A stretch of DNA of 63,053 nucleotides, filler included, from Stramenopiles sp. TOSAG23-6 (taxonomy: Eukaryota): the NCBI GenBank assembly GCA_900128565.1. It is 49 parts of 49 records of this genome, joined end to end, with 100 filler letters (N's around TTAATTAATTAA, not from the genome) between each part and the next. Parts side by side here need not be neighbours in the genome. Positions count along the whole stretch, not along the records: positions 45,811 to 46,869 come from LT639833.1; 48 more parts are not named here. One strand, written 5' to 3'. Both the position numbers and the translations under genes were made by a program. This document shows positions 1 through 61,750 of this stretch, in pieces. The stretch's first letter is position 1. Each line of letters starts with the position of its first letter. The notes under the pieces are model-generated. The model searched no databases, was not told the DNA's origin, and worked only from the letters and a program-made list of their open reading frames with translations.

Positions 1-1
1 C

Positions 2-2622: not shown

Positions 2623-2748
2623 AACTACCCAAGATGGTCGTCAAGGTATTGCAACCGCAGCAGCAGCATCAATGCCAATAAAAGCAACCGCATCAGNNNN
2701 NNNNNNNNNNNNNNNNNNNNNNNNNNNNNNNNNNNNNNNNNNAAAGTA

Positions 2749-7358: not shown

Positions 7359-7418
<60 letters not shown>

Positions 7419-7444
7419 AGTGAAATTTGAAGTAAAGAACATAC

Positions 7445-8402
7445 CGGGTGTTCCACTTGCAATCGAGTATTCATTTCAAGGAAGTAAAAGTTTTGGTCAT
7501 AATCACATAAAAATTCTACTGTACCAGCAGAAAAGTAACCCACCGATTTTGCAAGTTGAACAGCTTGTGCTTGCATTTTTTTTCGTGTTTCTTTTGTAAG
7601 CAAAACAGACGGAGATGTATTGTGAAAAAATATTTTTCAAAAAATTTTGTTAGGTACAAAATTTCGTACGAAATATAAATTCGAAATTGAAAAAAAAAAA
7701 AAACATACATTCTTCCAATACTTTTTGATTGCGTCTTTGAAGAGAACACTCCCGTTCTGGAAAAGCAGCATAATTTCCATGTTTATCACCAATTAATTGA
7801 ATTTCAATATGTCTACCATCCGTTGGGCATACAAAATGTTGTATCAGCATGCGGTCATCTCCAAATGATGAAGCAGCTTCTTCACGTGCAAGATGAAACC
7901 CTTCAACAAGCTCACTTTCATTCCAAGCGACTCGCATGCCTTTACCACCTCCTCCAGCACTAGCTTTCATTATAATGGGATATGTGTTGTGAAAAAATAT
8001 TTCAAAAAAAATCTAAAAAAAATTGTTAGGTACGAAATTTCGTACGAAAAAAAAACTTAAATTAGAAATTCATTCCAAAATACATCCATCATTCCCAAGT
8101 TTTTCACCAATCTCTTTTGTTATTTCAATCGCACGCTCAACAGTAGGACATTCTCCATCGAAACGTGGAGCACAACTTACACCTGCTTTTTCGGCAATCC
8201 TCATACTCTCAATTTTGTCACCCATGGAGAGTATACCGTGGGCATGTATTTTGGAAAAATATTCAAAAAAAAAAACTTAAATTTCTTAGGTACAAAATTT
8301 CGTACGAAAAAAAAAATCGATTTTTTGTTTAAAAAAAAAAATAAAACATACATTTGCACAGCGATGAAGAAGTGTCTTTGGTGAAGGTCTTAAAGACGGA
8401 AC
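7445..8402 (-). CDS. PCCA: Propionyl-CoA carboxylase alpha (biotin carboxylase domain), exons split by 5 element introns
   Basis: [59 protein letters not shown] after removing elements. Confidence 0.85.
7615..7708 (-). mobile_element. Introner-like element intron, GT-AT, 94 nt
   Basis: GAA GAA T|GTATGT..GTACCTAAC..CACAATACAT|CT CCG restores VLEESPS. Confidence 0.85.
7982..8083 (-). mobile_element. Introner-like element intron, GT-AT, 102 nt
   Basis: GGA T|GTATTT..CAACACAT|AT CCC restores GYPIIMKAS. Confidence 0.85.
8244..8351 (-). mobile_element. Introner-like element intron, GT-AT, 108 nt
   Basis: AAT|GTATGT..CCAAAATACAT|GCC; full family consensus. Confidence 0.75.
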
Positions 8403-8670
8403 GTGTATTGTGAAAAAATATGTTATAAAGTNNNNNNNNNNNNNNNNNNNNNNNNNNNNNNNNNNNNNNNNNNNNTTAATTAATTAANNNNNNNNNNNNN
8501 NNNNNNNNNNNNNNNNNNNNNNNNNNNNNNNTTTTTAAATTTTAAAAATTCTAATTACAAAAAAAAACAAAAAAAAAAAAAACAAAAAAAAAAATTTCAA
8601 ATTTTTTTTTTTTCAAAATTTTTTGTACCTAATCAAAATAAATGTTTTGAAATATTTTTGTACTCTATAA

Positions 8671-9872: not shown

Positions 9873-10638
9873 TTATGGAAGAACTTGTCTAACATTTAAA
9901 TTAATCCGTTTTGCGTCGTTTCGTAAAAAATCGACAACATTTTTATCATATTTCGTGTTTAGTACCGTTGAAAAATGATTTGGTAAAGTATTTTCAAGAA
10001 TTCGTGGAACACCATGCATACACAATCGACTTTTATTCCCCATAATTATGACATCACCACTACGAATATATATAGCAATTGGTTTTTTTTCATTTTTTTT
10101 TTCAATATTTTTTTTTTCAATATTTTTTTTTTCAATATTTTTTTTTTCAATATTTTGAGACTCTCCTAATAGAAAAATTGCAGAATGACCAAAACTTATA
10201 GATACAACTGGAGCATCATATGTTTCTTCAACTTCATCAGTATGACCACCCATTTATTGTGAAACAAAATGTTGTATAGTTTTGAAAATTTGTTAGGTAC
10301 AAAATTTACTACGAAAAAAAAATTGTAAAAAAAAAAAAATTTTGTAAAAAAAAAATTCAAAATTCGAAATTCAAAATAAGTGATGATACAAAAACATACA
10401 TGAAACTTTTCCGATGATACACGTTACAAATGGCAGCTTCAGGTCGAAACGTAGGAAATCCGACTAAAGCAGACAGTTTTGTGCAAATCCAGTGAACATC
10501 TTGTGGAAAATTTTTACATCTCCATTTTTTTGGATATGTACGATGAGTCCAGTCATAATGAAAACCAAAAGTAGACCACGAAATCTTTGATAAAATAGTT
10601 TTTGCTTTCTTTTGAAATTTTGTATCACTATGAGCCAT
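9873..10638 (-). CDS. ALKBH1: AlkB-family Fe(II)/2OG dioxygenase (ALKBH1-like), partial
   Basis: WSTFGFHYDW, PEAAICNVY, MGGHTD, SISFG, SGDVIIM, HGVPRI, RINLNVRQV. Confidence 0.85.
10252..10399 (-). mobile_element. Element intron, GT-AT, 148 nt
   Basis: TTC AT|GTATGT..CACAATAAAT|G GGT restores FMGGHTD. Confidence 0.85.
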
Positions 10639-10648
10639 ATACCAAATG

Positions 10649-10716
10649 TTATTATTTTTGTTATTATTATTTTTGTTATTATTATTATTATTATTTTTGT
10701 TATTATTATTATTATT

Positions 10717-10775
<59 letters not shown>
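10649..10775 (+). repeat. (ATT)n microsatellite (poly-Asn on minus strand)
   Basis: Direct observation. Confidence 0.9.
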
Positions 10776-21529: not shown

Positions 21530-22452
21530 CTACACTGAATGTTGCCACGTAACGTAATGTCTTACAGAATTTTTGTCACTCGCATGATTGGCAGCCAAAT
21601 TCAACTTGGCATATGATAATGCACGATCATCCGAGTCAACAACAAGTCTTCTATGTATTGTATCACATTCGATAATTGAATGACCATTTAAGTGTATAAT
21701 TTCTTCATATGTATGAAAACACGAAATATTAATCCCATTTTGATATCCTTGATTAAATGTATTACAACGTGAATCTAAATTACGTTTTGGGTCGTTTAAG
21801 AGCTCCATTCGCCGACGATTTGTTTCTTCAACATCTGGTGTCAATATTACTTCAGATGTTCCATCTTCACGAAATAGCGTAGATGTTGTTGCTGTGATTT
21901 CAATTCTCATGGAATTGCGAGTATACATTGTCAGTTTTCTTGTGTTTTGGGAGTTTTGATTACCCTGACTATACATCATACCTTGTTTGACAAAAGTAAA
22001 TACTTCGTGTTTCATAGTAGTAACTGTCATTTCTTCAACATGAGAAAGGTCGTCTATTGGAATATTGAGTAAATCGGGTAATAAAATATACGATTTTGCA
22101 TTACCAGTTACGAGTGGTGTTGTACTACATATAATGTGAAATTTTGTTTTTTAGAAAAAAAACTGTTAGGTACGAAATTACGTACGAAAAAAAAACTGAA
22201 TTCGAAATTGAAAAAAAATAAAACATACCTCGTTTTGTAAGAAGACCATCGTCACCAATGTCAAAATCAGCACTTCCCACGAGAACAAGTTCATGTGGAA
22301 TATGAGGCCAGGCGTGTTCTGCAACAGTCCATAATTCATTTCCATTAGCCATGAATTGTCGTAATCCATATGTCGTGATAACGAGAGCTGTTACAGATAC
22401 AATGAGAAGGGCTAAGAATAAAACACAACATTTATGAAATAATTTCTGAAAG
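21530..22452 (-). CDS. Hypothetical type II membrane protein
   Basis: Open frame after removing element 22129-22228. Confidence 0.5.
22129..22228 (-). mobile_element. Element intron, AG|GT..AT, 100 nt
   Basis: CGA G|GTATGT..CACATTATAT|GT AGT joins two ORFs; a more distant in-frame AG exists. Confidence 0.65.
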
Positions 22453-23245: not shown

Positions 23246-23568
23246 TTAAAGCAATTTTTGAATTGCTGTTACCATCTTTGAGCATTCTTTGGTATAATTC
23301 ACCTTTACACATCGAAATAATGTTGATCGGATTCGTTTAGCTCCATTGTATTCATGTATTGTGAAAAAATTCAAAAAAAATCTAAAAAAATTTGTTAGGT
23401 ACAAAATTTCGTATGAAAAAAAACCAAAAAAAAAAGTATTTTGAAATTCACAAAAACAACACACATCTTCTTTCAAACGCAGCCTCATCGTAAAATCCTT
23501 AAACAGCGCTGATTTCATTGTTGATTCATATAGATCTGCATTACTCTCCATTTGTTGTACAGTAATAT
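23246..23568 (-). CDS. RPA1: Replication protein A 70-kDa subunit C-terminus
   Basis: ALFKDFTMRLRLKED|EYNGAKRIRSTL..VNYTKEC. Confidence 0.75.
23354..23464 (-). mobile_element. Element intron, GT-AT, 111 nt, in-frame
   Basis: GAT|GTGTGT..CACAATACAT|GAA. Confidence 0.8.
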
Positions 23569-23733: not shown

Positions 23734-24712
23734 TCGCTTCTGAGTTTAGCCGAAATATGTACGTTTTCAATTTCGAATTTCGATGTTTTTTTTCATAGTA
23801 AATTTTGTACCTAACAAATTTTTTTTTGAAAATATTTTCCAATAATATATGTGTACGATCAAATTCGTTTGGTATATCAAGTGGACCTTCGAAAGTGCGA
23901 TCTTTTGGATCTTCATTATATTATTTATTATTTGTAAAATTTCCTGAAGCTTTCCAACGTCAACATTTAGTTGGGCAATTGATTACTCATTCGGGATCTG
24001 CGAATTCTGCTGAAGTAGACGCATCCTTAAGTGTTCTTTCTGTTCTTTCGGAATATCAACCAAATGATCTTTTGCCTTTTGCTGTATTCATAAAAGGTAC
24101 TTTGGATTTTATGTTGGGATTCACACTGAAACAAACCAGAATTGTTTTTATGACAATATGTTCTCTTGCTGTACATGAATGCCATACTCTTGCAGCATCA
24201 GGTGATCAGCAATCAAATGGGGGAGATAATAGCAATCAGTCTTCGTCTGTATCATCCATTAACGCAGGTAAGGAAGCATTAGATGAAGTTCGAATTTTGT
24301 TAAGAAAACTCACTTCAAACAATAATAGTAAGTATAAGCAAGCAGGTATTATTGGTACAGTTACACTTCTCGTTTGTCTAGGAAAAGAATCTGGTTCGAA
24401 TTCATCTGGGGAGGATAAGAATACTCGTGATCATTCGGAAAATTCAGAAGATGATGGTGATTCGTGTGATGAGGAAGAGGAAGAGGATTGGACACATGTA
24501 CATTTTTATCATGAATTTTAAATTTATTTATTGGTACGAAATTTTGTACCTAAACAAAAAAGATTTTTGTTTTACTATTTATCCGTTTTCATCATGAATT
24601 AAAAATTTTCTTGTCTACTCCAAATTCTATGATTTTTCGTACCTAATGAATTCCAAACTGTACACATACTTTTTCACCAACTCATTCTATTGAAATGGAA
24701 AGTTTAATAAAT
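23734..24712 (+). CDS. FANCD2: Fanconi anaemia D2 protein, partial
   Basis: RQHLVGQLITHSGS..EVDASLSVL..FAVFIKGTLDF..ILLRKLTS..YKQAGIIG. Confidence 0.85.
23759..23850 (+). mobile_element. Element intron, GT-AT, 92 nt
   Basis: ATA T|GTACGT..AATAATATAT|GT GTA restores LAEICVRS. Confidence 0.8.
24498..24667 (+). mobile_element. Double-core element intron, GT-AT, 170 nt
   Basis: CAT|GTACAT..two GTACCTAA..TACACAT|ACT. Confidence 0.6.
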
Positions 24713-26064: not shown

Positions 26065-27128
26065 GGACGATACCGAGGTGGTTGTTGTCCAGACGTCACA
26101 GCAACCTGTGGGTGGAAGGCATCCTCCCACGCGGCGCATCATACTCACAAGAGTCACCAACGCGTCGGAGTTTGACCTCGAGGAACTTGCATCACGTTTC
26201 GGCAGGCTCGAAAGCCTTTCGGTGGACCGCAAAGAGGCCACCGCGACCCTCGTGTTCCTGTCACGTGCAGACGCCGAAGGGTTCATTGCGTTTTATACAG
26301 AAAATGAGTTGATCTTTAACGGACAGTCTATCGGGATCCTGTACGCGCCTTGCCCCCCGCTGTCTCAAGAATTGCAGACCGCACTCGAGGCCGGCGCCAT
26401 GCGCTCGCTCTTCATGTTTGGGTTGCCGAGCGCCACGACCGAGGAACAGGTGGCGCAGGTGTATGGGAGCTTTGGCACGGTCTCTAGTGTGTCGATTAAC
26501 CATGCCAAACGCATCGCTTTCGTCAATTTTCTCAGTCTCGGCGCAGCTGTGGCCGCTCAGAAAGCCATGGACGGCGCCTCTTCCTTTGGAACTCCCGTGC
26601 CTGTTAAATACGCAAAGGAGGAAGGCAAACGCCCAGTTGCCAAACGACCTGGTACGCAACCGCACGGCGCTGCTCCGACTTCCACGCCAGTGTCATCCGC
26701 TGCGCCGGGCGCCTCTGGCTCTACTGGCGGCGGCAATCCCCAAAGGTCTGTGTATCTGGGCAACCTGGACACATCAGCCACTCTGTTTGACGTGTGCTCC
26801 CTCGCAAATCTCTTTGGCATGGTCGAACTGGCTCGCATTGTCCCGCCGAAAAGCTGCGCGTTTATCAATTTTGTGGACCCCGACGCGGCGCGCAAACTCA
26901 TCGCCGAGGCGAAGCGACAGGAAGCAAATAATACGCCGCTCCAGTTTGGCGGCAAGACCGTCAATGTGCGCTGGGCAAAATCTTCGCCAATGTCGGCGTC
27001 TCAACGCCGTGAACTGATGACGGGCGCATCTCGTTGTTTGATCGTCACAGGGTCACCCAGTGCCACACAAGAGGAAGTCGGTCGGACATTTTCACAAGGC
27101 TGTACAGTGGTCAATGTCATCCTGAACC
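26065..27128 (+). CDS. Multi-RRM protein (Nrd1/Mrn1-like) on a GC-rich contig
   Basis: RSVYLGNL, KSCAFINF, IAFVNFLS RNP motifs. Confidence 0.85.
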
Positions 27129-28392: not shown

Positions 28393-29201
28393 AATACAAG
28401 TGATAAAGATGTTTGTTTTCATCATGAATTTTTTATCTATTTTTTTTTCGTATGAAATTTCGAACCTAACAAAAACAATTTTGAAATATTTTTTCACAAT
28501 ATATGTTGTTTTTAGTGGAGAACTTTTATACACTCGTAGTGGTTCAATTAATAAATATAGTAACAATAACAATGGTGCAACATGGAAAATGAATCTTGAT
28601 GAAAGTAAAGGAGGTTGGAATGCTGGGGGAGGGTTATTGTTGAGCAAAGGTCAAATTATGAAACGAACGGCTGCGGCTGCTGCTGCATGCATCTATTGCC
28701 AACTTGAATGGATCTTGTGCTGCTGTTTTTGAGTTGCGTCCAAAAGCCGTTGTAGAATTGGCCATTTCTTTTAGTGCACCACGTTGGATGCCTCCCAGTG
28801 TACTTTTAGCATCAAAGCGTGTAATAGATTTAAATCCAAAACATGATTCTGTATTAGTTCTTCATGCTGATGTTGATCAAAATCTCGCTGGAAATGTTGC
28901 TCGAAGTGGAAGAAATTCACAAAAATGCAAGATAGGAAATCACAATTCTCGGGATAAACCAAAATGTACAATGACACTCAATCTATCTGCTCTTGTAGGT
29001 TTTCCGCAATCACCAAAGGAAACACTTAGTCTTGAGAACAAACCCAGGAATATCGTTGACAAGTATGAAAATGTTGTAGCTGAACTTGGTGTACAAAATC
29101 CAGAAAAACATGAAAAAAGAGTGGTAGATCCTGAATCAAGAACACATGGAATAACTAACCAAGAAGTTTCAGGCATACCTGATATTGACGAAAGAGCGTA
29201 A
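28393..29201 (+). CDS. Hypothetical protein C-terminus (frameshift near 28688)
   Basis: Continuous frame after element removal and +1 shift. Confidence 0.45.
28411..28504 (+). mobile_element. Element intron, GT-AT, 94 nt
   Basis: GAT|GTTTGT..CACAATATAT|GTT. Confidence 0.75.
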
Positions 29202-32943: not shown

Positions 32944-33045
32944 NNNNNNNNNNNNNNNNNNNNNNNNNNNNNNNNNNNNNNNNNNNNTTAATTAATTAAN
33001 NNNNNNNNNNNNNNNNNNNNNNNNNNNNNNNNNNNNNNNNNNNAA

Positions 33046-33177
33046 GTACAGAAAAAGATTATGCTAGAGAGGTTCCAAGAAGAACACCCTGGATTTGACT
33101 TTTCTGGTGCAGAGTTTAATGGTGCCGCCCCAGATCCAAGAAAATTTATGGGTGGCGTCAGTAGTTTAAAAAGATAA
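33046..33177 (+). CDS. NUDCD2: NudC domain-containing protein 2, C-terminus
   Basis: [34 protein letters not shown]. Confidence 0.85.
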
Positions 33178-33313
33178 AAAAGTAGATAATTTTCCAAATG
33201 AACGTTCTTTTTTTTTGAGTATCTTCTGTACATTTTCATCATTCTTTAAGGTTATGAAACATTTTTTATTTTTTTTGTTTCGTAGATAATTTTGATTAAT
33301 ACCATTGAGTATT

Positions 33314-34002
33314 TTATTGTGAATTGCATTCTACATCACTGTGTACCACTGAAGCATTATCTCTTACCTTAGTTCTAATTTCTTCTATTTCTGCATGTGA
33401 GAAAGTCTTTAAACGTCTATCGTTATAAACAAGTTCAATTTCATACTCATTCGTATCTTGATAAAAGTAATGTATTGCGAAAAAATATTTTTTTTTATGT
33501 AAAATAATTTTTGTTAGGTACAAATTTTTCATAGTTAAAAAAAAAATTGAAATTCATAGTGAAAACTTATATGCTCGAGAGCAACGTATGACGCATAAGG
33601 TACCCAAGTTCCATCCCATTCATGTTTCAATAAAGCTGTTAGTAGAGGCATTATTGTAATGTCATGGCCACGTACTGTGAAAAAATATATTTTTTGTAAA
33701 ATTTGTTAGGTACAAAATTTCGTATGAAAAAAATAGTTTAAAAAAAAAAAGTTTTAAAAAAAAAAAAAGTTTTAAAAAAAGAAAATTACACTGTACCAAA
33801 ATATACTTTTTTCAGTTTCTTCACTCATAATGTTGATAGAATTTTGTACTAACTCATCAAGCATATCACCAATAGCAAAATTTAACAAAATTGGATCTTT
33901 ATAATACATACCAAAGCGCCATTGCAGCAGCTCATTTACTGGATTCACATATGTTGCTAATAATTCAGTAGGTAGTGAGACTTTTGTTTCATCATAACAT
34001 CC
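33314..34002 (-). CDS. Histidine acid phosphatase C-terminal part, 3 exons
   Basis: WYSGHDITIMPLLTAL, WVPYASYVALEHY after element removal. Confidence 0.85.
33470..33570 (-). mobile_element. Element intron with AT donor (AT-AT), 101 nt
   Basis: CAT|ATAAGTTTT..CGCAATACAT|TAC. Confidence 0.7.
33670..33789 (-). mobile_element. Element intron with GT duplicated at both junctions, 120 nt
   Basis: AGT|GTAATT..CACAGTACGT|GGC restores YSGHD. Confidence 0.75.
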
Positions 34003-34260
34003 CTGTAGTTTGAAAAAATATTTTTTTTTTTGGATAAAAAACATTTGTTAGGTACAAAATTTCGTATGAAAAAAAATTAGATAAAAAATTAGATAAAAAA
34101 TCGAANNNNNNNNNNNNNNNNNNNNNNNNNNNNNNNNNNNNNNNNNNNNTTAATTAATTAANNNNNNNNNNNNNNNNNNNNNNNNNNNNNNNNNNNNNNN
34201 NNNNNTTTTTTTTTTTTGAAACTAAAAAAAAAAAATTTGAAATATTTTTCCAAAATACAT

Positions 34261-35106
34261 GAACCTTTGAATGGTGGACATCCTGTGCTAAAATGGTACA
34301 AAGTTCAGCCTGCGAAGAGAGGCCAGAAACCAAAAGGAATGATGAAATTGGCTGATGTTACGATACAACGAGCGGATGAATTTAATCGAGATGAAGAAGT
34401 TCATGTACGTTGTTATGAGTACTATGACAATATTTTTTTTTTTTTTTTTCAAACTTCAAATTTTTTTTCATACGAAATTTTGTACCTAACCAAAAAAAAA
34501 TCCAAGAAAAATTAATTTTTTTTTTAAATATTTTTGTACAATTTAGGATGGGAATACAAAGAAGCATATCACTTCAAAATGTTTTCGAATTGTATCACCT
34601 GATAAATCAAAATGTTATTTAATAAATATACACCCATTAATGATCCCAAGTCAAAATGCATATAGGTTTTAGCTTTTTTCAAATTCGATTTTTTTTTTAT
34701 AGTAAATTTCGTACCTAACAATTTTTTTTAGATTTTTTTTGAAATATTTTTCCAAAATGCATTACTTGAAAGAGATGATTGGATGCATAAAATCGAAGAA
34801 GCTGCTGCACAATATGAAACTGACGTAAGTTTTTTTTTTTCATACGAAATTTTGTACCTAAGCCAAAAAAAAAAAAAATTAAATCTAAGAAAAAAAAATA
34901 TTTTAGAAAAAAATATTTTCACACAACATATGATCATGATGTAAAAATTGCACAAAAAAACTCAACTCAAAAGAGCACAGAACGTCTATCCCAACGTCTA
35001 GATATCGTTGTAGGGTTAGGGTTACAAGATCGACTTCGTCCAAGAGAGAAACAAATTATATGGCAAAGTCGACACGTATTTTTTCATACGAAATTTTGTA
35101 CCTAAC

Positions 35107-37688: not shown

Positions 37689-40600
37689 CTTTCCCCCTGT
37701 TGTAATGTTACGTATATTTGTCATAATTGCGGTTCTATGCCATGCAACAGATGTGTTGTCAAGTTCGACTGTAAGAAAATTACCAGTTAAATTGAACTTT
37801 TCAGAGTTTTTTGGTGAAATACAACTTATAAATGACCATGCACCTTCAATAATTTTTAAGGATGAACCTAAGTTCGTTGCTAGTAGCCCAAGAGGAAAGT
37901 CTAATAGAGTTGAAAGAGCAAAGCTAAGTCCAAATGTGTCTTCCATTAAAGTTGTTTGTTTTATTTTTTTTCAAATTCGAATGTTTTTTAGTACGAAATT
38001 TTGTACCTAACAAATTTTAGTTTTTTTTTTTTGAAATATTTTTTTACAATACATGGTGTTCCAATTAGATTATACACACGCAGTGGTCGTGCAAGGCAAG
38101 CATTTGGGAAAGTTGCTGCCTCGATGAATCAAGCAGCTGCAAATAAAGCTAAATTGAAACAAGGTGATATTAGTCAAGTGAAAATGGTAAAGGGGAAGGA
38201 AAGGAAGTTTGCAAAATCAAAGGAATATGCTGAAAATCAAAAAATACAATCTAATTTGACAAATTCATTTGGTAAATCTTTTACAGATAATAAAAATGAT
38301 ACTTTACAAAAGAAAAAAAACAAACCACTACGTAAAGGGAAATCTGCTCGAAAGGCAATGCAAAGAAGCATTGGAAAAAATCCAAGAAAAAATAAAGAAA
38401 ATATATTTTGTACACTTGATCAGAATGATACAAGTAAAGAAAAGAAAAAAAGAAGATTACCAAAGATTTTACTTGATCAGAATGATGTAATTAAAGAAAA
38501 GAAAAAAAGAAGATTACCAAAGATTTTACTTGATCAGAATGATACAAGTAAAGAAAAGAAAAAAAGAAGACTACCAAAGATTTTACTGAGTGGTAATAAT
38601 AAAAAGAGTGGTCGAGGTGCATCATCACAAAAGTGGAGAGGTTCTACAATGTAATAAAGGTAATTTCATATAAATGTAATAAAGGTAATCTTGGCTAAAT
38701 GTAATAAAGATAATTTCATATAAATGTAATAAAGATAATTTCATCTAAANNNNNNNNNNNNNNNNNNNNNNNNNNNNNNNNNNNNNNNNNNNNTTAATTA
38801 ATTAANNNNNNNNNNNNNNNNNNNNNNNNNNNNNNNNNNNNNNNNNNNNCTTTCCCCCTGTTGTAATGTTACGTATATTTGTCATAATTGCGGTTCTATG
38901 CCATGCAACAGATGTGTTGTCAAGTTCGACTGTAAGAAAATTACCAGTTAAATTGAACTTTTCAGAGTTTTTTGGTGAAATACAACTTATAAATGACCAT
39001 GCACCTTCAATAATTTTTAAGGATGAACCTAAGTTCGTTGCTAGTAGCCCAAGAGGAAAGTCTAATAGAGTTGAAAGAGCAAAGCTAAGTCCAAATGTGT
39101 CTTCCATTAAAGTTGTTTGTTTTATTTTTTTTCAAATTCGAATGTTTTTTAGTACGAAATTTTGTACCTAACAAATTTTAGTTTTTTTTTTTTGAAATAT
39201 TTTTTTACAATACATGGTGTTCCAATTAGATTATACACACGCAGTGGTCGTGCAAGGCAAGCATTTGGGAAAGTTGCTGCCTCGATGAATCAAGCAGCTG
39301 CAAATAAAGCTAAATTGAAACAAGGTGATATTAGTCAAGTGAAAATGGTAAAGGGGAAGGAAAGGAAGTTTGCAAAATCAAAGGAATATGCTGAAAATCA
39401 AAAAATACAATCTAATTTGACAAATTCATTTGGTAAATCTTTTACAGATAATAAAAATGATACTTTACAAAAGAAAAAAAACAAACCACTACGTAAAGGG
39501 AAATCTGCTCGAAAGGCAATGCAAAGAAGCATTGGAAAAAATCCAAGAAAAAATAAAGAAAATATATTTTGTACACTTGATCAGAATGATACAAGTAAAG
39601 AAAAGAAAAAAAGAAGATTACCAAAGATTTTACTTGATCAGAATGATGTAATTAAAGAAAAGAAAAAAAGAAGATTACCAAAGATTTTACTTGATCAGAA
39701 TGATACAAGTAAAGAAAAGAAAAAAAGAAGACTACCAAAGATTTTACTGAGTGGTAATAATAAAAAGAGTGGTCGAGGTGCATCATCACAAAAGTGGAGA
39801 GGTTCTACAATGTAATAAAGGTAATTTCATATAAATGTAATAAAGGTAATCTTGGCTAAATGTAATAAAGATAATTTCATATAAATGTAATAAAGATAAT
39901 TTCATCTAAANNNNNNNNNNNNNNNNNNNNNNNNNNNNNNNNNNNNNNNNNNNNTTAATTAATTAANNNNNNNNNNNNNNNNNNNNNNNNNNNNNNNNNN
40001 NNNNNNNNNNCTTTCCCCCTGTTGTAATGTTACGTATATTTGTCATAATTGCGGTTCTATGCCATGCAACAGATGTGTTGTCAAGTTCGACTGTAAGAAA
40101 ATTACCAGTTAAATTGAACTTTTCAGAGTTTTTTGGTGAAATACAACTTATAAATGACCATGCACCTTCAATAATTTTTAAGGATGAACCTAAGTTCGTT
40201 GCTAGTAGCCCAAGAGGAAAGTCTAATAGAGTTGAAAGAGCAAAGCTAAGTCCAAATGTGTCTTCCATTAAAGTTGTTTGTTTTATTTTTTTTCAAATTC
40301 GAATGTTTTTTAGTACGAAATTTTGTACCTAACAAATTTTAGTTTTTTTTTTTTGAAATATTTTTTTACAATACATGGTGTTCCAATTAGATTATACACA
40401 CGCAGTGGTCGTGCAAGGCAAGCATTTGGGAAAGTTGCTGCCTCGATGAATCAAGCAGCTGCAAATAAAGCTAAATTGAAACAAGGTGATATTAGTCAAG
40501 TGAAAATGGTAAAGGGGAAGGAAAGGAAGTTTGCAAAATCAAAGGAATATGCTGAAAATCAAAAAATACAATCTAATTTGACAAATTCATTTGGTAAATC

Positions 40601-41071
40601 TTTTACAGATAATAAAAATGATACTTTACAAAAGAAAAAAAACAAACCACTACGTAAAGGGAAATCTGCTCGAAAGGCAATGCAAAGAAGCATTGGAAAA
40701 AATCCAAGAAAAAATAAAGAAAATATATTTTGTACACTTGATCAGAATGATACAAGTAAAGAAAAGAAAAAAAGAAGATTACCAAAGATTTTACTTGATC
40801 AGAATGATGTAATTAAAGAAAAGAAAAAAAGAAGATTACCAAAGATTTTACTTGATCAGAATGATACAAGTAAAGAAAAGAAAAAAAGAAGACTACCAAA
40901 GATTTTACTGAGTGGTAATAATAAAAAGAGTGGTCGAGGTGCATCATCACAAAAGTGGAGAGGTTCTACAATGTAATAAAGGTAATTTCATATAAATGTA
41001 ATAAAGGTAATCTTGGCTAAATGTAATAAAGATAATTTCATATAAATGTAATAAAGATAATTTCATCTAAA
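37689..41071 (+). repeat. Three identical 1061-nt contigs (37689-38749, 38850-39910, 40011-41071)
   Basis: Identical sequence and ends, separated by spacers. Confidence 0.97.
37705..38654 (+). CDS. Secreted basic hypothetical protein with 3x20-aa repeats; element intron 37954-38054
   Basis: Signal peptide; frame restored by GTT|GTTTGT..ACAATACAT|GGT. Confidence 0.6.
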
Positions 41072-41223: not shown

Positions 41224-42149
41224 GCATATTGGAAATGTACCTTCAACAATTGGAGAAGAAAATTTGCGTGAACAATTTGCAAAGTATGGTCGAATTGATG
41301 CTTTAAAATTAGTTCTTCAGAAAGACCGACGTTATGCGTTTGTGACTTTTCATACTGCGGAAGAAGCTGAAATTGCAAAACATGAGCTTAGTAAGCTTCC
41401 CATGTGGCGCTTGAACATTAGTTATTCTAAGAGAGAAACGATTGCTGTTGCAACAAGGGCAGATAGACTTGCTTTAAATGCGGCAATGCAACACCAGCAC
41501 CAAAGTTTTTTTCAACAAAGACAGACAGAAAATAATAAATTTGGAACGGATAATAAAACGCAGCGAAATATTTATAATTCAACAAAAGATTTGTCTATGG
41601 TCGTAAATTCAGTAAATGACATTCGTGATGCACCAACAGGCCGCCGTCATATCGCTCCTTCTCGTAGTCTTTGGATCGGAAATCTGCAGAGCTGTACAAA
41701 AAAAACAAATATATGAGGCTTGTTCTGCGTATGGTGATATAAATGATATAAATTTTCTTCGTCTCAGGAAATGCGCATTTGTGGATTTTAAAGAGATTGA
41801 CAGTTCGATTTCAGCTTTTAATGGAATGCAAGGTACAAAAATTGGCGAATCTAAAATTTATCTTGGATATGGACGTCCTAGAACTGATCGAGAAAAACAA
41901 AAATACAAAAAAGGGGGAAATATTTTACATCGAACAAAAAGTGAACAATCAGACCACAATGAAAATATTGGAGCAAATGATACAAATGTACATTTTCAAA
42001 ATTAAATTTTTTACCAAATTTTTTTTTTATAAAAATTTCGTACCTAACAAAAAAAATGTTTAAAATATTTTTTCACAATACATGATAATAATGAATGGAA
42101 TGTTGTTGTGAATAGAAAATCTCGTAGCAAAAGTTTGGATAGTACTCAT
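41224..42149 (+). CDS. RRM protein, partial; element intron 41988-42083 (GT-AT)
   Basis: HIGNV..RRYAFVTF; SRSLWIGNL..KCAFVDF; homopolymer frameshift near 41700. Confidence 0.85.
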
Positions 42150-45629: not shown

Positions 45630-45866
45630 GTATGTTTTATTTTTTTTTCAAATTCAATTTTTTTTTCGTACGAAATTTTGTACCTAACAAATTTAAGTTT
45701 TTTTTTTTTGNNNNNNNNNNNNNNNNNNNNNNNNNNNNNNNNNNNNNNNNNNNNTTAATTAATTAANNNNNNNNNNNNNNNNNNNNNNNNNNNNNNNNNN
45801 NNNNNNNNNNGGTACAAAATTTCGTACGAAAAAAATAAATTCGAAATTGAAAAAAAAATAAAACAC

Positions 45867-46756
45867 TTCACGGAACTAGTTTTGCCTTCATTTTTTGTAG
45901 TTTTTCTTTTATATTCTCTTTTTTTGTCTTTTTTGCATTCCTCTTCGCTGCAATTTTTTGATCCGCAGAGAAACAATAATGAGTGCCATAAATGTTTCTT
46001 GCTTGGAGTTTGTATGGAGCTTCACCGTGTCGATGCGATAGTATAGAACCCTTTACTAGCACAAGTTCCTTCAATTGTTCTCCATCTTTATGTATTTTGG
46101 AAAAATATTTCAAAAAAAATTCGTTAGGTACAAAATTGCGTACGAAAAATAAATTCGAAATTGAAAAAAAATAAAACATACATGAATTGTATTCCATGTC
46201 CTGCATAAACCTCTACTGAAGCTTCTACGGTATTTTGAATATTTTTTCCTCATAATATTTGAATGAAACTTTTTCCATTCCTTGTCCATGTATTTTGAAA
46301 AAATATTAAAATTTTTTTTTGTTAGGTATAAAATTTCGTATGAAAAAAAAAACTTGGAATTTGAAAAAAAATAAAACATCCATGTTTGAATAATCTGGAG
46401 GTAGTCGACTCAAATCATCTAAAGTTCGATGCCAATCATAAGAAAAATCATCGGTGTTGGAAACTGTAACATGTATTTTGGAAAAATATTTCGAAAAAAA
46501 AATCGTTAGGTACAAAATTACGTATGAAAAATAAATTCAAAATTGAAAAAAAAATAAAAAATCGTTAGGTACAAAATTTCGTACGAAAATAAATTCAAAA
46601 TTGAAAAAAAAATAAAACATACATTCCATCTTAGTTTTTCTTCCTCATTGGCTAAAATAATAGGTGAAATTTCCATAAAACTATTATCATTATTATTAAA
46701 AGTCAACTCAATTTCTGTACCATTTCTCAGCATTCCAACAACAGTAAGCCAAATCC
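45867..46756 (-). CDS. HTTM/gamma-carboxylase-like protein C-terminal region, 4 exons
   Basis: WIWLTVVGMLRNGTEIEL..MDKEWKKF..LCRTWNTIH after element removal. Confidence 0.55.
46090..46181 (-). mobile_element. Element intron, GT-AT, 92 nt (near consensus)
   Basis: CAT|GTATGT..CCAAAATACAT|AAA. Confidence 0.8.
46288..46381 (-). mobile_element. Element intron with GG donor (GG-AT)
   Basis: AT|GGATGTTTT..CAAAATACAT|G. Confidence 0.65.
46471..46622 (-). mobile_element. Element intron with ~59-nt internal tandem duplication, GT-AT
   Basis: AAT|GTATGT..two cores..AATACAT|GTT. Confidence 0.8.
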
Positions 46757-46867
46757 AAGTATTGTGAAAAAATATTTCAAAAAAAAAAAACTAAAATTTG
46801 TTAGGTACAACATTTCGTACGAAAAAAAAATTCGATTTTTTTGTTTAAAAAAAAAAATAAAACATAC
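46757..46867 (-). mobile_element. Element intron ending in TT
   Basis: AT|GTATGT..CACAATACTT|GG ATT. Confidence 0.65.
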
Positions 46868-46969
46868 ATNNNNNNNNNNNNNNNNNNNNNNNNNNNNNNN
46901 NNNNNNNNNNNNNTTAATTAATTAANNNNNNNNNNNNNNNNNNNNNNNNNNNNNNNNNNNNNNNNNNNN

Positions 46970-48028
46970 CTTAATCGTCTACTTCAGGCTTATTTGTCTT
47001 CTATGTCATGGTCTCCAGCTGCTCCACCGAATTGGGGGACTTCTGCTCAAATTCCAAACAATAATCCATGGGGAGCTTCTAGCACACTAGGTAATACCAT
47101 CCCATCACTCAGGTCATGTTCACCGACTACGTCATCAGGGAAATCGAATGAAACTAATCCAGTGAATGATTCAGGGAAAGTATCGATGGAATCTTCATTT
47201 GACGGATCGTTTCTGTCAAATTTGGTGATGGACGAAACCTCTTTAGGTCGTGCACGGTCTCTTCACAATAGTTGGGGTGTGCCAGCACCAACAGCTGAAA
47301 AAACAGGACTTTACTTGACGACACCACCAGACATTAAACCTACTGACAGATCTTACGACAAATCAACGTTTAATTATCCTCCAAAATCTTCCTCGACTCA
47401 GTTTAGATACTGACGTGTGTAATGGCACTGCTAGTAGTTCTAGTATTAGTCCTTGTGCAGTGAATACAAATCCTGCACTTGGAAATGATTTAGGCAGTGG
47501 AGGTAAAAGTCGTATTTTATCTGGATATACTGGAGTAAATGATATAATATCGAGCAATACAGAGCAACAACAACAACAACAACAGCAACTAATGAGTTCA
47601 ATGCCACAGCAGCAACAGCAACAACAACTATATCCAATACAAAAGAGAATGGAGCAAACTGCACATCAACCAAGTTCGACGTCTTTCATATCATATCAAA
47701 ATCAGCAACAAAATAATAATATTTTGACGAATAATATGTGTGGTGTTGGAGTTGATCCAAAGATTAATAATAATAATATTTCACAATTACCACACCCTTC
47801 ATGTTTTCCTTCTGGAAATTCATTAAATAATCTAAATAATCTAAATAATCTAAATAATCCAAATAATCCAAATAATCTAAATAATCTAAATAATCCAAAT
47901 AATCTAAATAATCCAAATAATCCAAATAATCCAAATAATCTAAATAATCTAAATAATCTAAATAATCTAAATAATCTAAATATGTCTTTGCATATGCCAC
48001 CACACATGGCAAACCCTAATCCTAACCC
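46970..48028 (+). CDS. Low-complexity S/Q/N-rich protein; 9-nt tandem repeat 47827-47980
   Basis: AATAATC(T/C)A repeats encoding NNL/NNP. Confidence 0.55.
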
Positions 48029-49287: not shown

Positions 49288-49739
49288 TTTGTACCTAACA
49301 ATTTTTTTAGATTTTTTTTGAAATATTTTTCCAAAATACATGTCAAATATACACAGAGGCAACTGTCTCGGATGCAAAGACAGTTCATTTATCATCATCA
49401 AACATTTACATATGTCCCTATGGAAATATTTGCGATCCAAAATTTGGTCTTAAAGGATGTATATTTTTATCATTCATTTTTTTTTTTTCAAATTAGGTAT
49501 AAAATTTTGTACGATTTTTTTTTTTTTTTTTTTTTTACAATGAAAATTGTATACCTAACAAATTTCAAATTTTTGAAATATTTTTTAACAATATAAATCC
49601 TAATCGATATGATAATTGCAAGTGTTCTAAAGCAGAGGGTGGATTTGGAAATACAGAAAAATATGACTGTTCGATAGGTTTTTATTGTTATGCAAATGGA
49701 AAATGCAGTGAATTTGTACATTTTCAAAATTGAATTGTT

Positions 49740-49786
<47 letters not shown>

Positions 49787-49846
49787 TTTTTTCCCAAAAA
49801 ATTTTTTTTTTTTTTTAAAAAAAAAAAAAAATTTTTTGGGAAAAAA

Positions 49847-49893
<47 letters not shown>

Positions 49894-50345
49894 AACAATT
49901 CAATTTTGAAAATGTACAAATTCACTGCATTTTCCATTTGCATAACAATAAAAACCTATCGAACAGTCATATTTTTCTGTATTTCCAAATCCACCCTCTG
50001 CTTTAGAACACTTGCAATTATCATATCGATTAGGATTTATATTGTTAAAAAATATTTCAAAAATTTGAAATTTGTTAGGTATACAATTTTCATTGTAAAA
50101 AAAAAAAAAAAAAAAAAATCGTACAAAATTTTATACCTAATTTGAAAAAAAAAAAATGAATGATAAAAATATACATCCTTTAAGACCAAATTTTGGATCG
50201 CAAATATTTCCATAGGGACATATGTAAATGTTTGATGATGATAAATGAACTGTCTTTGCATCCGAGACAGTTGCCTCTGTGTATATTTGACATGTATTTT
50301 GGAAAAATATTTCAAAAAAAATCTAAAAAAATTGTTAGGTACAAA
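49288..50345. repeat. Perfect whole-contig palindrome centred at ~49816/49817, containing element copies
   Basis: Arms are exact reverse complements. Confidence 0.95.
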
Positions 50346-51691: not shown

Positions 51692-52598
51692 ACGAAACTC
51701 TGCATGTTAAACCACCTTCAGTTGCTCCACTTAATTGACCAATAGTTGAACGCATTGTATTTCGTGTAAATCCATGACATAATCGTTGGTCTAAACAACC
51801 TTTGTTTAAATCCCAGACTAAAATTCCACCATCTTCATCAGCAGACATGTAATTTTTAAAAAAATATTTCATTTTTTTTTTTTTTAGCGTTAGGAAAACG
51901 TACATTGCTCGGCTTCCATCCGTTGAAATACAGACAGAAATTAACGGCACGTTATGCGCTGAAAAATGGAATACTGCGTCACCTGTATTTAATTGCCATA
52001 CATACACAGAAGTATCAGAACTCACGGAGCAACCACGAGAACCATCATCTGAAAGAGCATGTATTTTGGAAAAATATTTCAAAAAATTTTTTTTACCGAA
52101 AAAAAAAAAATTGTTAGGTACAAAATTTTCAAAAAAAAAAAAATGAAATTTTCAAAAAAATAAAAACATACAACACAGGTAACAGTTTTTTTATGTTTCT
52201 TCATTTGACGTATCAAAGTGCCTTCAAGTATATCCCAAAAAATTAATGTATTATCCCAACTTCCTGACAATGCAAAACGTCCATCAGGTGTGATCTCAAC
52301 TGATGCTACAGTGTCTGTATGACCTTCAAGACAATGTAATTTACGACCAGTAGCAAGATTCCATATATTTTGGAAAAATATTTGAAATTTTTTTTTCAAA
52401 AATTTGTTAGGTACAAAATTTCGTACGAAAACTAAAAAAAAAAAATTCGATTTTTTTGTTATAAAAAAAAAAAAAAAACATACATACAATGAGTCGACTA
52501 TCACTAGATGCCGTAACACCTTTAAAAATATTTGTCATTTTCATTGAAGTTTCATCGACAGTTGATAATACAGTAGGATGAACTGTATTCATTGGTAC
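51692..52598 (-). CDS. WD40 repeat protein, 5 element introns
   Basis: GHTDTVASVEITPDGRFALSGSWDNTLIFWD and neighbouring repeats. Confidence 0.9.
51847..51903 (-). mobile_element. Minimal 57-nt element intron, GT-AT
   Basis: AT|GTACGTTTTCCTAAC..AATTACAT|G restores RAMSADEDG. Confidence 0.75.
52059..52171 (-). mobile_element. Element intron, GT-AT, 113 nt (register-informative)
   Basis: GTT|GTATGT..AATACAT|GCT gives VTCVALS. Confidence 0.85.
52363..52483 (-). mobile_element. Element intron, GT-AT, 121 nt
   Basis: GTA T|GTATGT..AATATAT|GG restores RLIVWNL. Confidence 0.85.
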
Positions 52599-52879: not shown

Positions 52880-53698
52880 GTAGTTATCACGTAGAGATTG
52901 ATGTGATTCATTTAAAAGTAATCCCAATTCTTTTAATTGTGTTTCAAAAATTGGTTTTGAACAAATTTGTATAAATTGTTCAACACGTTCAACTTCAGAG
53001 TAGACATATATCGTAGTATAATATTTTTTTCAGAAAAAAAAAATGTTAGGTACAAATTTTGGTACAAAAAAAAAATTAAATTTTTAAATTTAAAAAAAAA
53101 AAAAAAAAAAAAATGGTTAGGTACAAATTTTCGTACGAAAAAAATAAATTCAAATCTTTAAAAAAAAAAAAAAAAACATACATGAATTGCCCTTTCTAAG
53201 CATTTAATATCACATTTCGATGCATCTTTAGCCATGGTATTAATAACATTAGTTGCTAAATCTTCACGATTTGGAAACAAAACAGCAGACGTATCTCCGG
53301 ACAGATTTGTTCCAAATCCCAAAGATTTTGCAATGATTGAAGATGAAAAAAATTCTTTTGTAATTGCATTTAAATTCTGTTTTGCAATTTTTTGCATTCC
53401 ACCTGTTAAAACTTTTTTTCCAGTTCTTTTTTCTAAATTAGTTTGAATATGTTTTAAATTTGTACATTTTGCATTAAATTTTAATTGTTTTTGTAATAAG
53501 GCTGAAGCCAAACCACCCTCAACAACACGCCTATTGAAACAGGTTTGTGCCGTATCTGCTTTTTGAGCTTTTTTTCCTGAATGTAAAACAACAAATGAAG
53601 CATTTTTTGGTAATTCAATATTTTTTGTTACTAATTTTGGTTCAAATGTAACATGTAATGCATTCCCTTTTTTTGATAGGCACGAAACTGCTTGATCC
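52880..53698 (-). CDS. GALK2: N-acetylgalactosamine kinase/galactokinase, partial
   Basis: MDQAVS, FNRRVVE, RAIHVYSEVERV, LGLLLNESHQSLRDNY. Confidence 0.85.
53006..53181 (-). mobile_element. Double-core element intron, GT-AT, 176 nt
   Basis: CAT|GTATGT..GATATAT|GTC restores RAIHVYSE. Confidence 0.8.
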
Positions 53699-60898: not shown

Positions 60899-61750
60899 GT
60901 GTTCATCCTACAGTGTCTAATCTTGAAGGATCTCAACAAAATTGTTCATGTAAAACTCGTTTGTTATATAACCCTAAACCTAACGCTATATATATATTTC
61001 TAACCCTAACCCTAATTCAATTTTTTTTTTTTTCAAAATATTTTTTTTTCATAGTAAAAATTTGTACTTAGACTGTTTTTTTTAATTACATATTGTCCAG
61101 AACATAGTAGTAAAGGATAAAAATTGTAAATTTAAAAATGGTGTTGATTCGTATGTATTAAAAGAGGAATTTCGCAAAGTAAAAAATAGTCTACATACGA
61201 ATTCTCAAAATTTTCCAAAAAAAAAAAATTTCCAAAAAAATCAAAAAAATCAAAAAAATCAAAAAAATCAAAATATGAATAGTTTTTCTAATTTTTTAGA
61301 TATGACGTCAGAAATCTTGGATATTGAAGAATTGGCTAACCAAGGCAAAGAACACGAAATATGTCCTTATTTTTTAATGAGGCAAGCATCCATTCAAAAT
61401 GAAGCTGATCTAATTTTTGTACCTTATAATTATCTCATCGATCCAGATGTTAGAGAATTGACATGTACGTGTTATCAAACCCTAACCCTAATTTCAAATT
61501 TATTTTTTTAGAAAAAAATTTCGATTTTTTTTCTAAAATTTTTTTTTTTTTTTGGAATTTTTTTTTTTTTTTTTTTTCTAGACCTAAATTCTCAAAAAGT
61601 CTAAAACTTTGATATATCGTGACGTCATACAGTTCAGAATCTTGATTTATCAAATTGTATAATTCTATTTGATGAAGCTCACAACTTAGAATCCGTTTGT
61701 ACTGATGCTGCATCATTTGACCTTACACCGACAGATCTTGCTCTTAGTAT
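60899..61750 (+). CDS. RTEL1: XPD-family helicase RTEL1-like; degenerate GT-AG introns 60959-61107 and 61465-61632
   Basis: [38 protein letters not shown]. Confidence 0.75.

What the first reader, a model, noticed from the sequence alone, without database searches (positions are those of the whole stretch)
46090..46181. MITE anatomy: terminal inverted repeats and a 2-bp (mostly AT) target-site duplication that supplies the acceptor
Seen: the ends (AT)GTATGTTTT and AAAATAC(AT) are reverse-complementary, giving an element GTAT...ATAC. In most AT-ending copies the last two exon bases equal the last two intron bases, and at 33670-33789 both are GT. Inference: a non-autonomous DNA transposon inserts at AT and duplicates it; splicing from the element's GT to the end of the second TSD copy restores the exon exactly. 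The 3' splice dinucleotide is therefore simply the TSD. AT-targeting PIF/Harbinger-related (ISL2EU-type) transposases are a candidate mobiliser. No transposase is visible in this window.
Basis: partly seen in the sequence, partly recalled or inferred. Interest (0 to 1): 0.8.

Follow-up and report, generated by a model that had tools for sequence, protein, structure and literature searches.

The report
Transposon-like introns ending in AT
A short repeated element sits inside many genes of an AT-rich marine protist as an intron that begins with GT but ends with AT instead of the usual AG, a new variant of the known transposon-made introns.

Summary
The sequence facts hold. Window 46090-46181 (minus strand) is a 92-nt insert reading AT|GTATGT...CCTAAC...AAAATACAT|. 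It is one of 24 complete relatives I mapped, and 23 of 49 contigs in the window carry at least one copy.

Removing GT through the final dinucleotide keeps the reading frame in 17 of 18 testable copies. It also joins Pfam profiles and relatives' proteins without a gap, so these are introns. No RNA evidence was obtained.

- The 2-nt repeat is real: 16 AT/AT and 1 GT/GT among 24 pairs. But the match between flank and end within a locus is no better than shuffling (P=0.29). A target-site duplication is therefore plausible, not shown.
- The terminal inverted repeat is only GTAT/ATAC, intact in 7 of 24 copies. One copy has a true long inverted end.
- The ISL2EU target A|AT|T is not seen.
- None of the 52 ORFs scanned carries a transposase domain.

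The 3' consensus A-Y-A-T mirrors the canonical YAG, which favours GT..AT over AT..AC.

Verdict: an old introner-like family in a stramenopile, and a new variant of a known kind because the acceptor is non-canonical.

The parts
46090..46181 (-). Focal element, a 92-nt intron reading GTATGT...ACAT
   Evidence: Excision leaves 76 and 73 open codons, phase 0. nhmmer E=2e-20.
46182..46183 (-). Exonic AT, the 5' copy of the 2-nt direct repeat
   Evidence: flank AT equals the last two intron bases.
46176..46181 (-). GTATGT, candidate 5' splice site
   Evidence: Twenty of 24 copies start with GT.
46123..46147 (-). Most conserved core, TTTCGTACGCAATTTTGTACCTAAC, holding a CTAAC branch-point-like motif 34 nt from the 3' end
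   Evidence: Conservation line of the 21-copy alignment. The branch-point role is inferred.
46090..46098 (-). 3' terminus AAAATACAT; the last two bases AT lie at 46090-46091
   Evidence: Family consensus is A-Y-A-T| (counted from the rows).
7615..7708 (-). Copy in the biotin-carboxylase gene, AT/AT
   Evidence: Pfam CPSase_L_D2 profile runs 38-127 | 128-188 across it. Relatives read VLEESPSV.
7982..8083 (-). Copy whose 5' end is an inverted copy of the family's 3' end (ATGTATTTTGGAA..), AT/AT
   Evidence: Relatives read [12 protein letters not shown] across it.
8244..8351 (-). Copy, AT/AT
10252..10399 (-). Copy in a 2OG-Fe(II) oxygenase gene, AT/AT, ending AATAAAT
   Evidence: Pfam 2OG-FeII_Oxy_2 profile runs 27-109 | 109-194 across it. 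Frame 99/100.
22129..22228 (-). Copy, flank AG and end AT (discordant)
   Evidence: frame 79/100.
23354..23464 (-). Copy, AT/AT, 5' GTGTGT
23759..23850 (+). Copy, AT/AT; the upstream exon is too short to test the frame
28411..28504 (+). Copy, AT/AT; the upstream exon is too short to test the frame
33470..33570 (-). Copy starting ATAAGT (A at +1), AT/AT
   Evidence: frame 45/51.
33670..33789 (-). Copy with GT flank and GT end, the only concordant non-AT copy
   Evidence: frame 86/44.
34432..34546 (+). Copy ending in canonical AG in the same register, flank AT
34662..34762 (+). Copy starting ATAGGT, AT/AT
34825..34931 (+). Copy reading GTAAGT...ACATAT, flank AC and end AT
   Evidence: In frame only with the end at 34931.
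37954..38054 (+). Copy, flank TT and end AT; identical duplicates lie at 39115-39215 and 40276-40376 in duplicated contigs
41988..42083 (+). Copy, AT/AT, 5' GTACAT
46288..46381 (-). Copy starting GGATGT (G at +2), AT/AT
   Evidence: frame 51/59.
46471..46622 (-). Copy with an internal tandem duplication of the core, AT/AT
46757..46867 (-). Copy, flank AT and end TT
52059..52171 (-). Copy in a WD40 gene, flank TT and end AT; it decides the register
   Evidence: Only GT..AT gives ..TVTCV|ALSDDG, which matches the other two repeats (..ASVEITPDG..ISVCISTDG).
52363..52483 (-). Copy, AT/AT, ending ATATAT
51847..51903 (-). 57-nt deletion derivative, AT|GTACGT..TCCTAAC..TTACAT|
60950..61091 (+). Diverged relative with CCCTAA-like repeats inside, AT/AT
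61465..61632 (+). Diverged relative ending ATACAG (canonical AG), flank AT
   Evidence: Pfam DEAD_2 profile runs 46-137 | 135-172 across it.

Best explanation
The 92-nt stretch is one member of an old, high-copy, non-coding element family. The family has colonised protein-coding genes of an AT-rich marine stramenopile and now serves as their introns, that is, an introner family.

Each copy brings three signals: a strong 5' splice site (GTATGT), a CTAAC branch-point-like core followed by a T-rich tract, and a 3' end reading A-Y-A-T. The pre-mRNA is cut before the G of GT and after the T of AT, so one AT stays in the exon and the original codons are restored.

The most likely origin is a cut-and-paste DNA element (GTAT...ATAC) that inserts at AT and duplicates it. 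The second AT then falls where AG normally sits and is used as the acceptor.

Shown: the repeat family, the sense orientation, frame restoration and exact junctions.
Inferred: spliceosomal removal, the GT..AT register, and the origin of the second AT as a target-site duplication.
For: Family:
- 50 nhmmer hits at E<0.01 in 23 of 49 contigs.
- 24 complete copies of 57-168 nt.
- In four seawater runs, 63 to 8485 contigs lay on the element parts of one contig.

Introns:
- 17 of 18 testable copies keep at least 20 open codons on both sides, against 6-8 of 18 at shifts of 1, 2 or 4 nt. The 18th copy and three more introns fit.
- Pfam profiles continue across three junctions.
- Relatives P0122 and P0124-P0126 read straight across two junctions.

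Register:
- 20 of 24 copies start GT. Position -3 is C or T in 23 of 24, -2 is A in 22 of 24, and -1 is T in 22 of 24 (G in the other 2) (counted from the rows). This mirrors the canonical YAG.
- Copy 52059-52171 gives the conserved V only under GT..AT.

Duplication:
- Flank AT in 19 of 24 copies and end AT in 20 of 24.
- The mRNA keeps one AT.
- One GT/GT copy.
- Copy 7982-8083 has a 13-nt perfect inverted copy of the 3' end at its 5' end.

Precedent: introners that carry one splice site and take the other from the duplication (PMC11282704 section 5; Gozashti preprint passages).
Against: - No RNA evidence. In the RNA runs laid, the exons of the one contig I could lay had zero depth.
- The flank-to-end match is no better than shuffling (P=0.29), and 7 of 8 copies with a non-AT dinucleotide are discordant.
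- The TIR proper is 4 bp and intact in 7 of 24 copies. Changes in the end stem are not compensated.
- Fold z-scores are modest, from -2.5 to +1.4.
- The site consensus AT|G is not palindromic.
- Four of 24 copies lack GT: three start AT and one starts GG.
- No transposase, no empty site and no antisense or clearly intergenic copy was seen.
- Copies are old, with median pairwise identity 0.68 and maximum 0.87, so no recent mobility is visible.
Confidence: 0.62

Rival explanations
1. The family and the splicing are the same, but there is no target-site duplication. The mobile unit is GTATG...ATACAT itself. It is placed next to a pre-existing AT, with the site AT|G, either by a DNA mechanism without a staggered cut or by reverse splicing of the excised intron followed by reverse transcription.
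For: - Only across-intron matches are seen; the shuffle test gives P=0.29.
- The site AT|G is asymmetric, with G at +1 in 16 of 23 sites and no partner base at -3. This resembles a proto-splice site.
- In the antisense control no copy reached more than 36 open codons on both sides, whereas 12 of 18 sense copies reached 49-50.
- The TIR is very short.
- Gozashti et al. state that this case cannot be told apart from a TSD.
Against: - One GT/GT copy exists.
- One copy has a long inverted end.
- The element has a nested inverted-repeat layout.
- Elements making AT duplications exist, namely ISL2EU.
- With copies about 68% identical, 7 decayed repeats of 24 is what a true duplication would leave.
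Confidence: 0.25
2. The introns are read two bases further left, as AT...AC introns (|ATGTATG...ATAC|AT). They would be removed like the rare AT-AC class.
For: - The 2-nt repeat makes both registers give the same mRNA in 17 of 24 copies.
- 13 of 24 copies have both AT and AC in that register. It would also rescue the copies that start GG or AT in the other register (counted from the rows).
- An A-first, C-last pairing is a known workable combination (recalled).
Against: - AC is kept in only 17 of 24 copies, and C varies with T as at -3 of YAG.
- Copies with TT, AG or AC flanks would start TT, AG or AC.
- Copy 52059-52171 would give D where three WD repeats have V.
- The 5' motif is GTATGT, not ATATCC or ATAAGT, and the CTAAC lies 34 nt from the end, too far for U12-type introns (recalled consensus).
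- The Rfam scan found no snRNA in the window.
Confidence: 0.07
3. Removal is not by the spliceosome. It is guided by pairing of the two ends, as proposed for the nonconventional introns of euglenids.
For: In 6 of 7 folded copies the minimum-energy fold pairs AUGUAU with AUACAU. Boundary repeats and non-canonical ends are also features of euglenid introns (PMC11282704 section 6).
Against: - The anchored 6-bp stem is intact in only 5 of 24 copies, without compensatory changes.
- Only 3 of 7 folds beat all but 5 or fewer of 200 shuffles.
- The conserved GTATGT, CTAAC and T-tract are spliceosomal signals.
Confidence: 0.04
4. These are not functional introns. They would be insertions in dead gene copies or artefacts of a fragmented single-cell assembly.
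For: The assembly is fragmentary. It contains three identical contigs and one contig that is its own reverse complement.
Against: Seventeen of 18 copies preserve long open frames exactly. Conserved domains continue across the junctions. One seawater DNA contig bridges an element end and its exon with 2 differences in 142 nt (record 15).
Confidence: 0.02

Closest known systems
Introner elements of Micromonas pusilla and Aureococcus anophagefferens, and other introner families (as described in PMC11282704 section 5 and the Gozashti et al. preprint; original papers not read)
   Same: Short, non-coding, many-copy elements inside genes. The element carries one splice site and the other lies in the duplicated target. 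Splicing leaves the mRNA length unchanged. Chrysochromulina introners likewise carry the 5' site and co-opt the 3' site.
   Different: Those use canonical AG acceptors and 3-8-bp duplications. Here the repeat is 2 nt (AT) and the acceptor is AT. The copies are old (median identity 0.68), and the duplication is not proven.
MITE-derived non-canonical introns of the tunicate Fritillaria borealis (from PMC11282704 section 6; original paper not read)
   Same: Transposon-like introns with boundary repeats whose 3' end (AC or AT) comes from the repeated exonic motif. This implies a tolerant spliceosome.
   Different: Fritillaria introns are mostly AG-AC or AG-AT after an exonic TAC. Here the 5' end stays a strong GTATGT and only the last base departs from the rule. 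The host is a stramenopile.
Introners of Amoebophrya (PMC7789003, passages read)
   Same: Non-canonical repeated introns with inverted repeats and 3-5-nt direct repeats over the boundaries.
   Different: Amoebophrya shows no fixed terminal dinucleotides, has 8-20-nt inverted repeats, and U1 was not detected. Here one dominant GT..AT pattern is seen with very short inverted ends.
ISL2EU group of the PHIS (PIF/Harbinger) DNA transposons (PMC4482050, passages read)
   Same: A 2-bp AT target-site duplication.
   Different: The target A|AT|T is not seen. No DDE transposase or long copy was available, and the end sequences were not compared.
AT-AC introns, U12-type and U2-type (recalled consensus)
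   Same: The element can formally be read as AT...AC.
   Different: The 5' and branch motifs and the branch-to-end distance do not fit. Conservation favours GT..AT.

Membership tests
Introner (transposon-derived intron family) | Many similar intron sequences at unrelated gene positions in one genome | tested here: met
   24 complete copies; 50 hits in 23 of 49 contigs.
Introner (transposon-derived intron family) | Removal restores the coding sequence | tested here: met
   17 of 18 copies in frame. Three Pfam profiles continue across junctions. Relatives' proteins read across two junctions.
Introner (transposon-derived intron family) | Spliced out of RNA | tested here: inconclusive
   The RNA runs did not cover the exons of the contig laid.
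Introner (transposon-derived intron family) | Positions specific to the lineage (recent gain) | tested here: inconclusive
   The relatives fetched were intron-free bacterial or transcript-like contigs.
MITE (non-autonomous cut-and-paste element) | Terminal inverted repeats | tested here: inconclusive
   4 bp, intact in 7 of 24 copies; 6 bp with the ATs, in 5 of 24. One copy has a 13-nt inverted end.
MITE (non-autonomous cut-and-paste element) | Target-site duplication that varies with the locus | tested here: inconclusive
   16 AT/AT, 1 GT/GT and 7 discordant pairs; shuffle P=0.29.
MITE (non-autonomous cut-and-paste element) | Small size, no coding capacity, high copy number | tested here: met
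   57-168 nt. Up to 8485 contigs of one seawater DNA run lay on the element parts.
MITE (non-autonomous cut-and-paste element) | Autonomous partner with the same ends | not testable with these tools
   No whole genome is held. None of 52 ORFs has a transposase domain.
ISL2EU (PHIS superfamily) | AT dinucleotide duplication | tested here: inconclusive
   The AT/AT pattern fits, but a duplication is not proven. The definition comes from PMC4482050.
ISL2EU (PHIS superfamily) | Target A|AT|T | tested here: not met
   A at -3 in 7 of 23 sites and T at +1 in 3 of 23 (G in 16). Selection on exons may have distorted this.
ISL2EU (PHIS superfamily) | DDE transposase of the PHIS type | not testable with these tools
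   None in the window; no genome.
Tc1/mariner | TA duplication | tested here: not met
   The repeat is AT, and no register gives TA...TA.
U12-type intron | RTATCCTT 5' site and TCCTTAAC branch site 10-20 nt from the end (recalled) | tested here: not met
   The 5' site is GTATGTTTT, and the core TACCTAAC lies 34 nt from the end.

The most novel reading that the evidence does not exclude
An uncultured marine heterotrophic stramenopile removes a large share of its introns as GT..AT. A 2-bp-duplicating element flooded its genes, and its spliceosome accepts U in place of G at the last intron base. This would be an independent third case, after a tunicate and a parasitic dinoflagellate, of transposon invasion coupled to relaxed splice-site rules. 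Here the departure is clean: a single base at the acceptor.
Probability: 0.5. Interest if true: 0.75.

Novelty: new variant of a known kind. Interest (0 to 1): 0.6.

Why it matters
If transcripts confirm it, this family offers a simple natural test of what the second splicing step needs at the acceptor. Thousands of introns would have normal donor and branch signals and differ from the rule only in the last base. A few copies that mutated to AG in the same register would serve as internal controls.

It would also add a stramenopile to the few lineages where intron gain by mobile elements goes together with non-canonical splicing.

It has a practical side as well. Gene finders that insist on AG will miss these introns, so gene models of this organism and its relatives will be broken.

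Tried and rejected
- Whole genome: none is held. A search for long autonomous copies and a genome-wide flank table were therefore impossible.
- Earlier findings: two look-ups returned nothing.
- Reads: the first read-laying request failed because the linkers leave pieces shorter than 80 nt. On contig 45811-46869, only the element parts were covered in three RNA runs and one DNA run. The exons had no RNA cover, and no informative joints were listed (15 shown, 327 not shown). This gives no evidence for or against splicing or empty sites.
- Collection scans for the core motif: viral contigs 0 and metagenome contigs 0. Prokaryote genomes gave 31 single hits, which nhmmer matched only over the seeded core, so they are chance.
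- The search for related loci with P0122: the 7 of 80 loci that I aligned showed no introns, so they say nothing on empty sites.
- Homologue search with the WD40 exon: only generic repeat proteins at 61% identity or less, and no orthologue.
- Rfam: no match in the window.
- Pfam on three short exons of contig 33044-34105: nothing usable. The YSGHD motif there rests on recall only.
- A gap-between-ORFs listing to find unrelated introns was too noisy to use.
- A 3-nt ATG duplication was considered. It fits 15 of 23 sites, but G at both places is expected anyway.
- A CATG palindromic target was considered. C at -3 occurs in only 7 of 23 sites.
- Literature: searches listed no report of a GT..AT introner family in stramenopiles. 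The library lacks most subscription journals, and supplements were not opened.

Full report
WHAT THE WINDOW IS

The 63,053 bases are not one stretch of chromosome. They are 49 separate contigs joined by 44 N, TTAATTAATTAA and 44 N. The first contig is 7,258 bases; the rest fall steadily from 1,073 to 1,054 bases. G+C is mostly 0.22-0.41.

An arginyl-tRNA synthetase exon finds its best matches in Blastocystis (51%) and other stramenopiles. Public runs that hold parts of the sequence are small 2015 DNA runs of one coded organism, plus seawater metagenomes and metatranscriptomes. I read this as a fragmentary assembly of an AT-rich marine heterotrophic stramenopile. No whole genome is held.

THE OBSERVATION

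On the minus strand, 46181 down to 46090 reads GTATGTTTTATTTTTTTTCAATTTCGAATTTATTTTTCGTACGCAATTTTGTACCTAACGAATTTTTTTTGAAATATTTTTCCAAAATACAT. It is preceded by exonic AT at 46183-46182.

A profile built from eight copies finds 50 hits at E<0.01 in 23 of 49 contigs. I fixed both ends of 24 complete copies of 57 to 168 nt, counting once a copy that recurs in three identical contigs.

In a 21-copy alignment the best conserved parts are:
- the start, ATGTATGTTTT;
- the core, TTTTCGTACGAAATTTTGTACCTAAC;
- the end, AATATTTTTYCAMAATACAT.

Median pairwise identity is 0.68 and the maximum is 0.87, so the family is old.

In four seawater runs, 63 to 8,485 contigs lay on the element parts of one contig. 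The family is therefore very abundant in nature.

ARE THEY INTRONS?

Removing each copy from its first base through its last two bases leaves at least 20 open codons on both sides in 17 of 18 testable copies. Shifting the 3' end by 1, 2 or 4 nt gives 6-8 of 18; shifts of 3 give 17 again, as they must. The one failure (34825) fits when its end is placed 2 nt further on, where it again ends in AT. Three more diverged introns also fit. Three copies have too little upstream sequence in their contig to test.

All testable copies lie in sense orientation. The same excision read on the opposite strand never gives more than 36 open codons, whereas 12 of 18 sense copies give 49-50.

The exact junctions are confirmed where the protein is conserved:
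- Pfam CPSase_L_D2 matches profile positions 38-127 in one exon and 128-188 in the next.
- 2OG-FeII_Oxy_2 matches 27-109 and then 109-194.
- DEAD_2 matches 46-137 and then 135-172.
- Four relatives of the biotin carboxylase read [12 protein letters not shown] (P0122 only; the other three differ just upstream) and V(L/I)EESPSVLL with no gap. P0122 is 96% identical over the middle exon, and P0124 sits on a 2,145-nt contig too short to hold introns.

The mature message therefore keeps exactly one copy of the dinucleotide. I obtained no RNA evidence. The one contig I could lay had no exon cover in the RNA runs.

WHICH REGISTER?

Because the flank repeats the end, GT..AT, TG..CA and AT..AC give the same mRNA in 17 of 24 copies. 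Three things favour GT..AT.

1. Twenty of 24 copies begin with GT, within GTATGT-like motifs.
2. The last four bases behave like a normal acceptor with T in place of G. Position -3 is C or T in 23 of 24 copies, -2 is A in 22 of 24, and -1 is T in 22 of 24. The two exceptions at -1 are G, which makes a canonical AG in the same register (34432-34546 and 61465-61632). A partial copy ending at 34004 does the same. If C were the last intron base, it should not vary freely with T.
3. Copy 52059-52171 has flank TT and end AT. GT..AT gives ..HKKTVTCV|ALSDDGS.., which matches the neighbouring repeats ..HTDTVASVEITPDG.. and ..HNVPLISVCISTDGS... The AT..AC register would put D in place of the conserved V.

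Against a simple picture, three copies begin with AT and one begins with GG. How these are processed is open.

IS THE SECOND AT A TARGET-SITE DUPLICATION?

- The flank is AT in 19 of 24 copies, against a background AT frequency of 0.099 (P 2e-15). The end is AT in 20 of 24.
- Pairs: 16 AT/AT, 1 GT/GT (33670-33789) and 7 discordant (AG/AT, AC/AT, TT/AT twice, AT/TT, AT/AG twice).
- Shuffling the ends among loci gives 16.0 identical pairs on average against 17 observed (P=0.29). At least one non-AT match arises in 20% of shuffles.

The window thus shows a motif shared across introns, not a locus-specific repeat. Gozashti et al. say of exactly this case that a duplication cannot be told from an insertion preference without duplication (passages).

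With copies this diverged, a true AT-specific duplication would also leave mostly discordant non-AT cases. The result therefore does not refute the idea either.

The rebuilt empty site is N-A-T|G. G follows in 16 of 23 sites, while -3 is A, G and C in 7 sites each. The site is not palindromic, and it is not the A|AT|T target reported for ISL2EU, the group that makes AT duplications (PMC4482050 passages). The G may instead reflect selection for a good exon context.

INVERTED ENDS

Without the ATs, the anchored perfect complement is GTAT/ATAC. It is intact in 7 of 24 copies and absent in 8. With the ATs it reaches 6 bp in 5 of 24. Changes in one arm are not compensated in the other.

RNA folds pair the two ends in 6 of 7 copies, but z-scores run from -2.5 to +1.4.

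The best sign of a true inverted-repeat element is copy 7982-8083. Its 5' end, ATGTATTTTGGAA.., is a 13-nt perfect inverted copy of the family's 3' end. This suggests an ancestor with symmetric ends, and a successful subfamily whose 5' end changed to the better donor GTATGT. That last step is inference.

MOBILISER

None of the 52 ORFs I scanned (of 143 listed) has a transposase domain. Rfam finds nothing in the window. The core motif is absent from the viral and metagenome collections, and only chance hits occur in prokaryote genomes.

COMPARISON WITH WHAT IS KNOWN

The working model is that of introners: short mobile elements that carry one splice site and take the other from the duplicated target. 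This is as described for Micromonas, Aureococcus, Chrysochromulina and others (review PMC11282704 sections 5 and 6; preprint passages; PNAS 2025 passages).

Non-canonical ends that stem from boundary repeats are described for Fritillaria (AG-AC, AG-AT) and Amoebophrya. The case here differs in three ways: it keeps a strong GT donor, it departs only at the last base, and its host is a stramenopile.

My five literature searches listed no report of such a family. That library is incomplete, and I did not open supplements. The supplements of the introner surveys may list this or related genomes.

VERDICT

The finding is real and more than chance. The intron reading and the GT..AT register are well supported by sequence and protein evidence, but not by RNA. 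The origin of the second AT as a duplication and the ISL2EU link remain hypotheses. This is a new variant of a known kind, of good but not exceptional interest.

Noticed in passing
whole window; linkers e.g. 7259-7358: The window is 49 contigs sorted by falling length and joined by N44-TTAATTAATTAA-N44 linkers. Neighbouring genes are therefore not neighbours in the genome.
   Followed up: yes
37689-38749, 38850-39910, 40011-41071: Three contigs are identical over their full 1,061 bases. Counts of copies must treat them as one.
   Followed up: yes
49288-50345: This contig is exactly its own reverse complement. It is probably an amplification chimera of a single-cell genome.
   Followed up: partly
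26065-27128: This contig has G+C 0.58 against 0.22-0.41 elsewhere. It encodes an RRM protein and holds no element, so it may come from another organism.
   Followed up: no
1-7258: The long first contig has long uninterrupted ORFs (one of 697 codons) and no element hit at E<0.01.
   Followed up: no
8352-8431 (minus strand): Upstream of copy 8244-8351 lie 51 bases that do not encode the conserved ..FIGPN of relatives. Before them lies the 3' end of another copy, ending ATACAC. This may be two elements within one intron, with the true exon off the contig.
   Followed up: partly
46471-46622 and 53023-53181: Two copies carry an internal tandem duplication of the core region.
   Followed up: no
60966-61020 and 61478-61494: Telomere-like CCCTAA repeats lie inside two diverged introns of a DEAD_2 helicase gene.
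   Followed up: no
10360-10773 (minus) and 47319-48026 (plus): The proteins contain long asparagine runs and a 9-nt repeat coding for LNNPNN-like units, typical of very AT-rich protists.
   Followed up: no
45811-46869: In polyA RNA libraries from seawater, hundreds to over a thousand contigs match the element parts (1,367 in X5). Element RNA, or DNA carry-over, is therefore present there.
   Followed up: no
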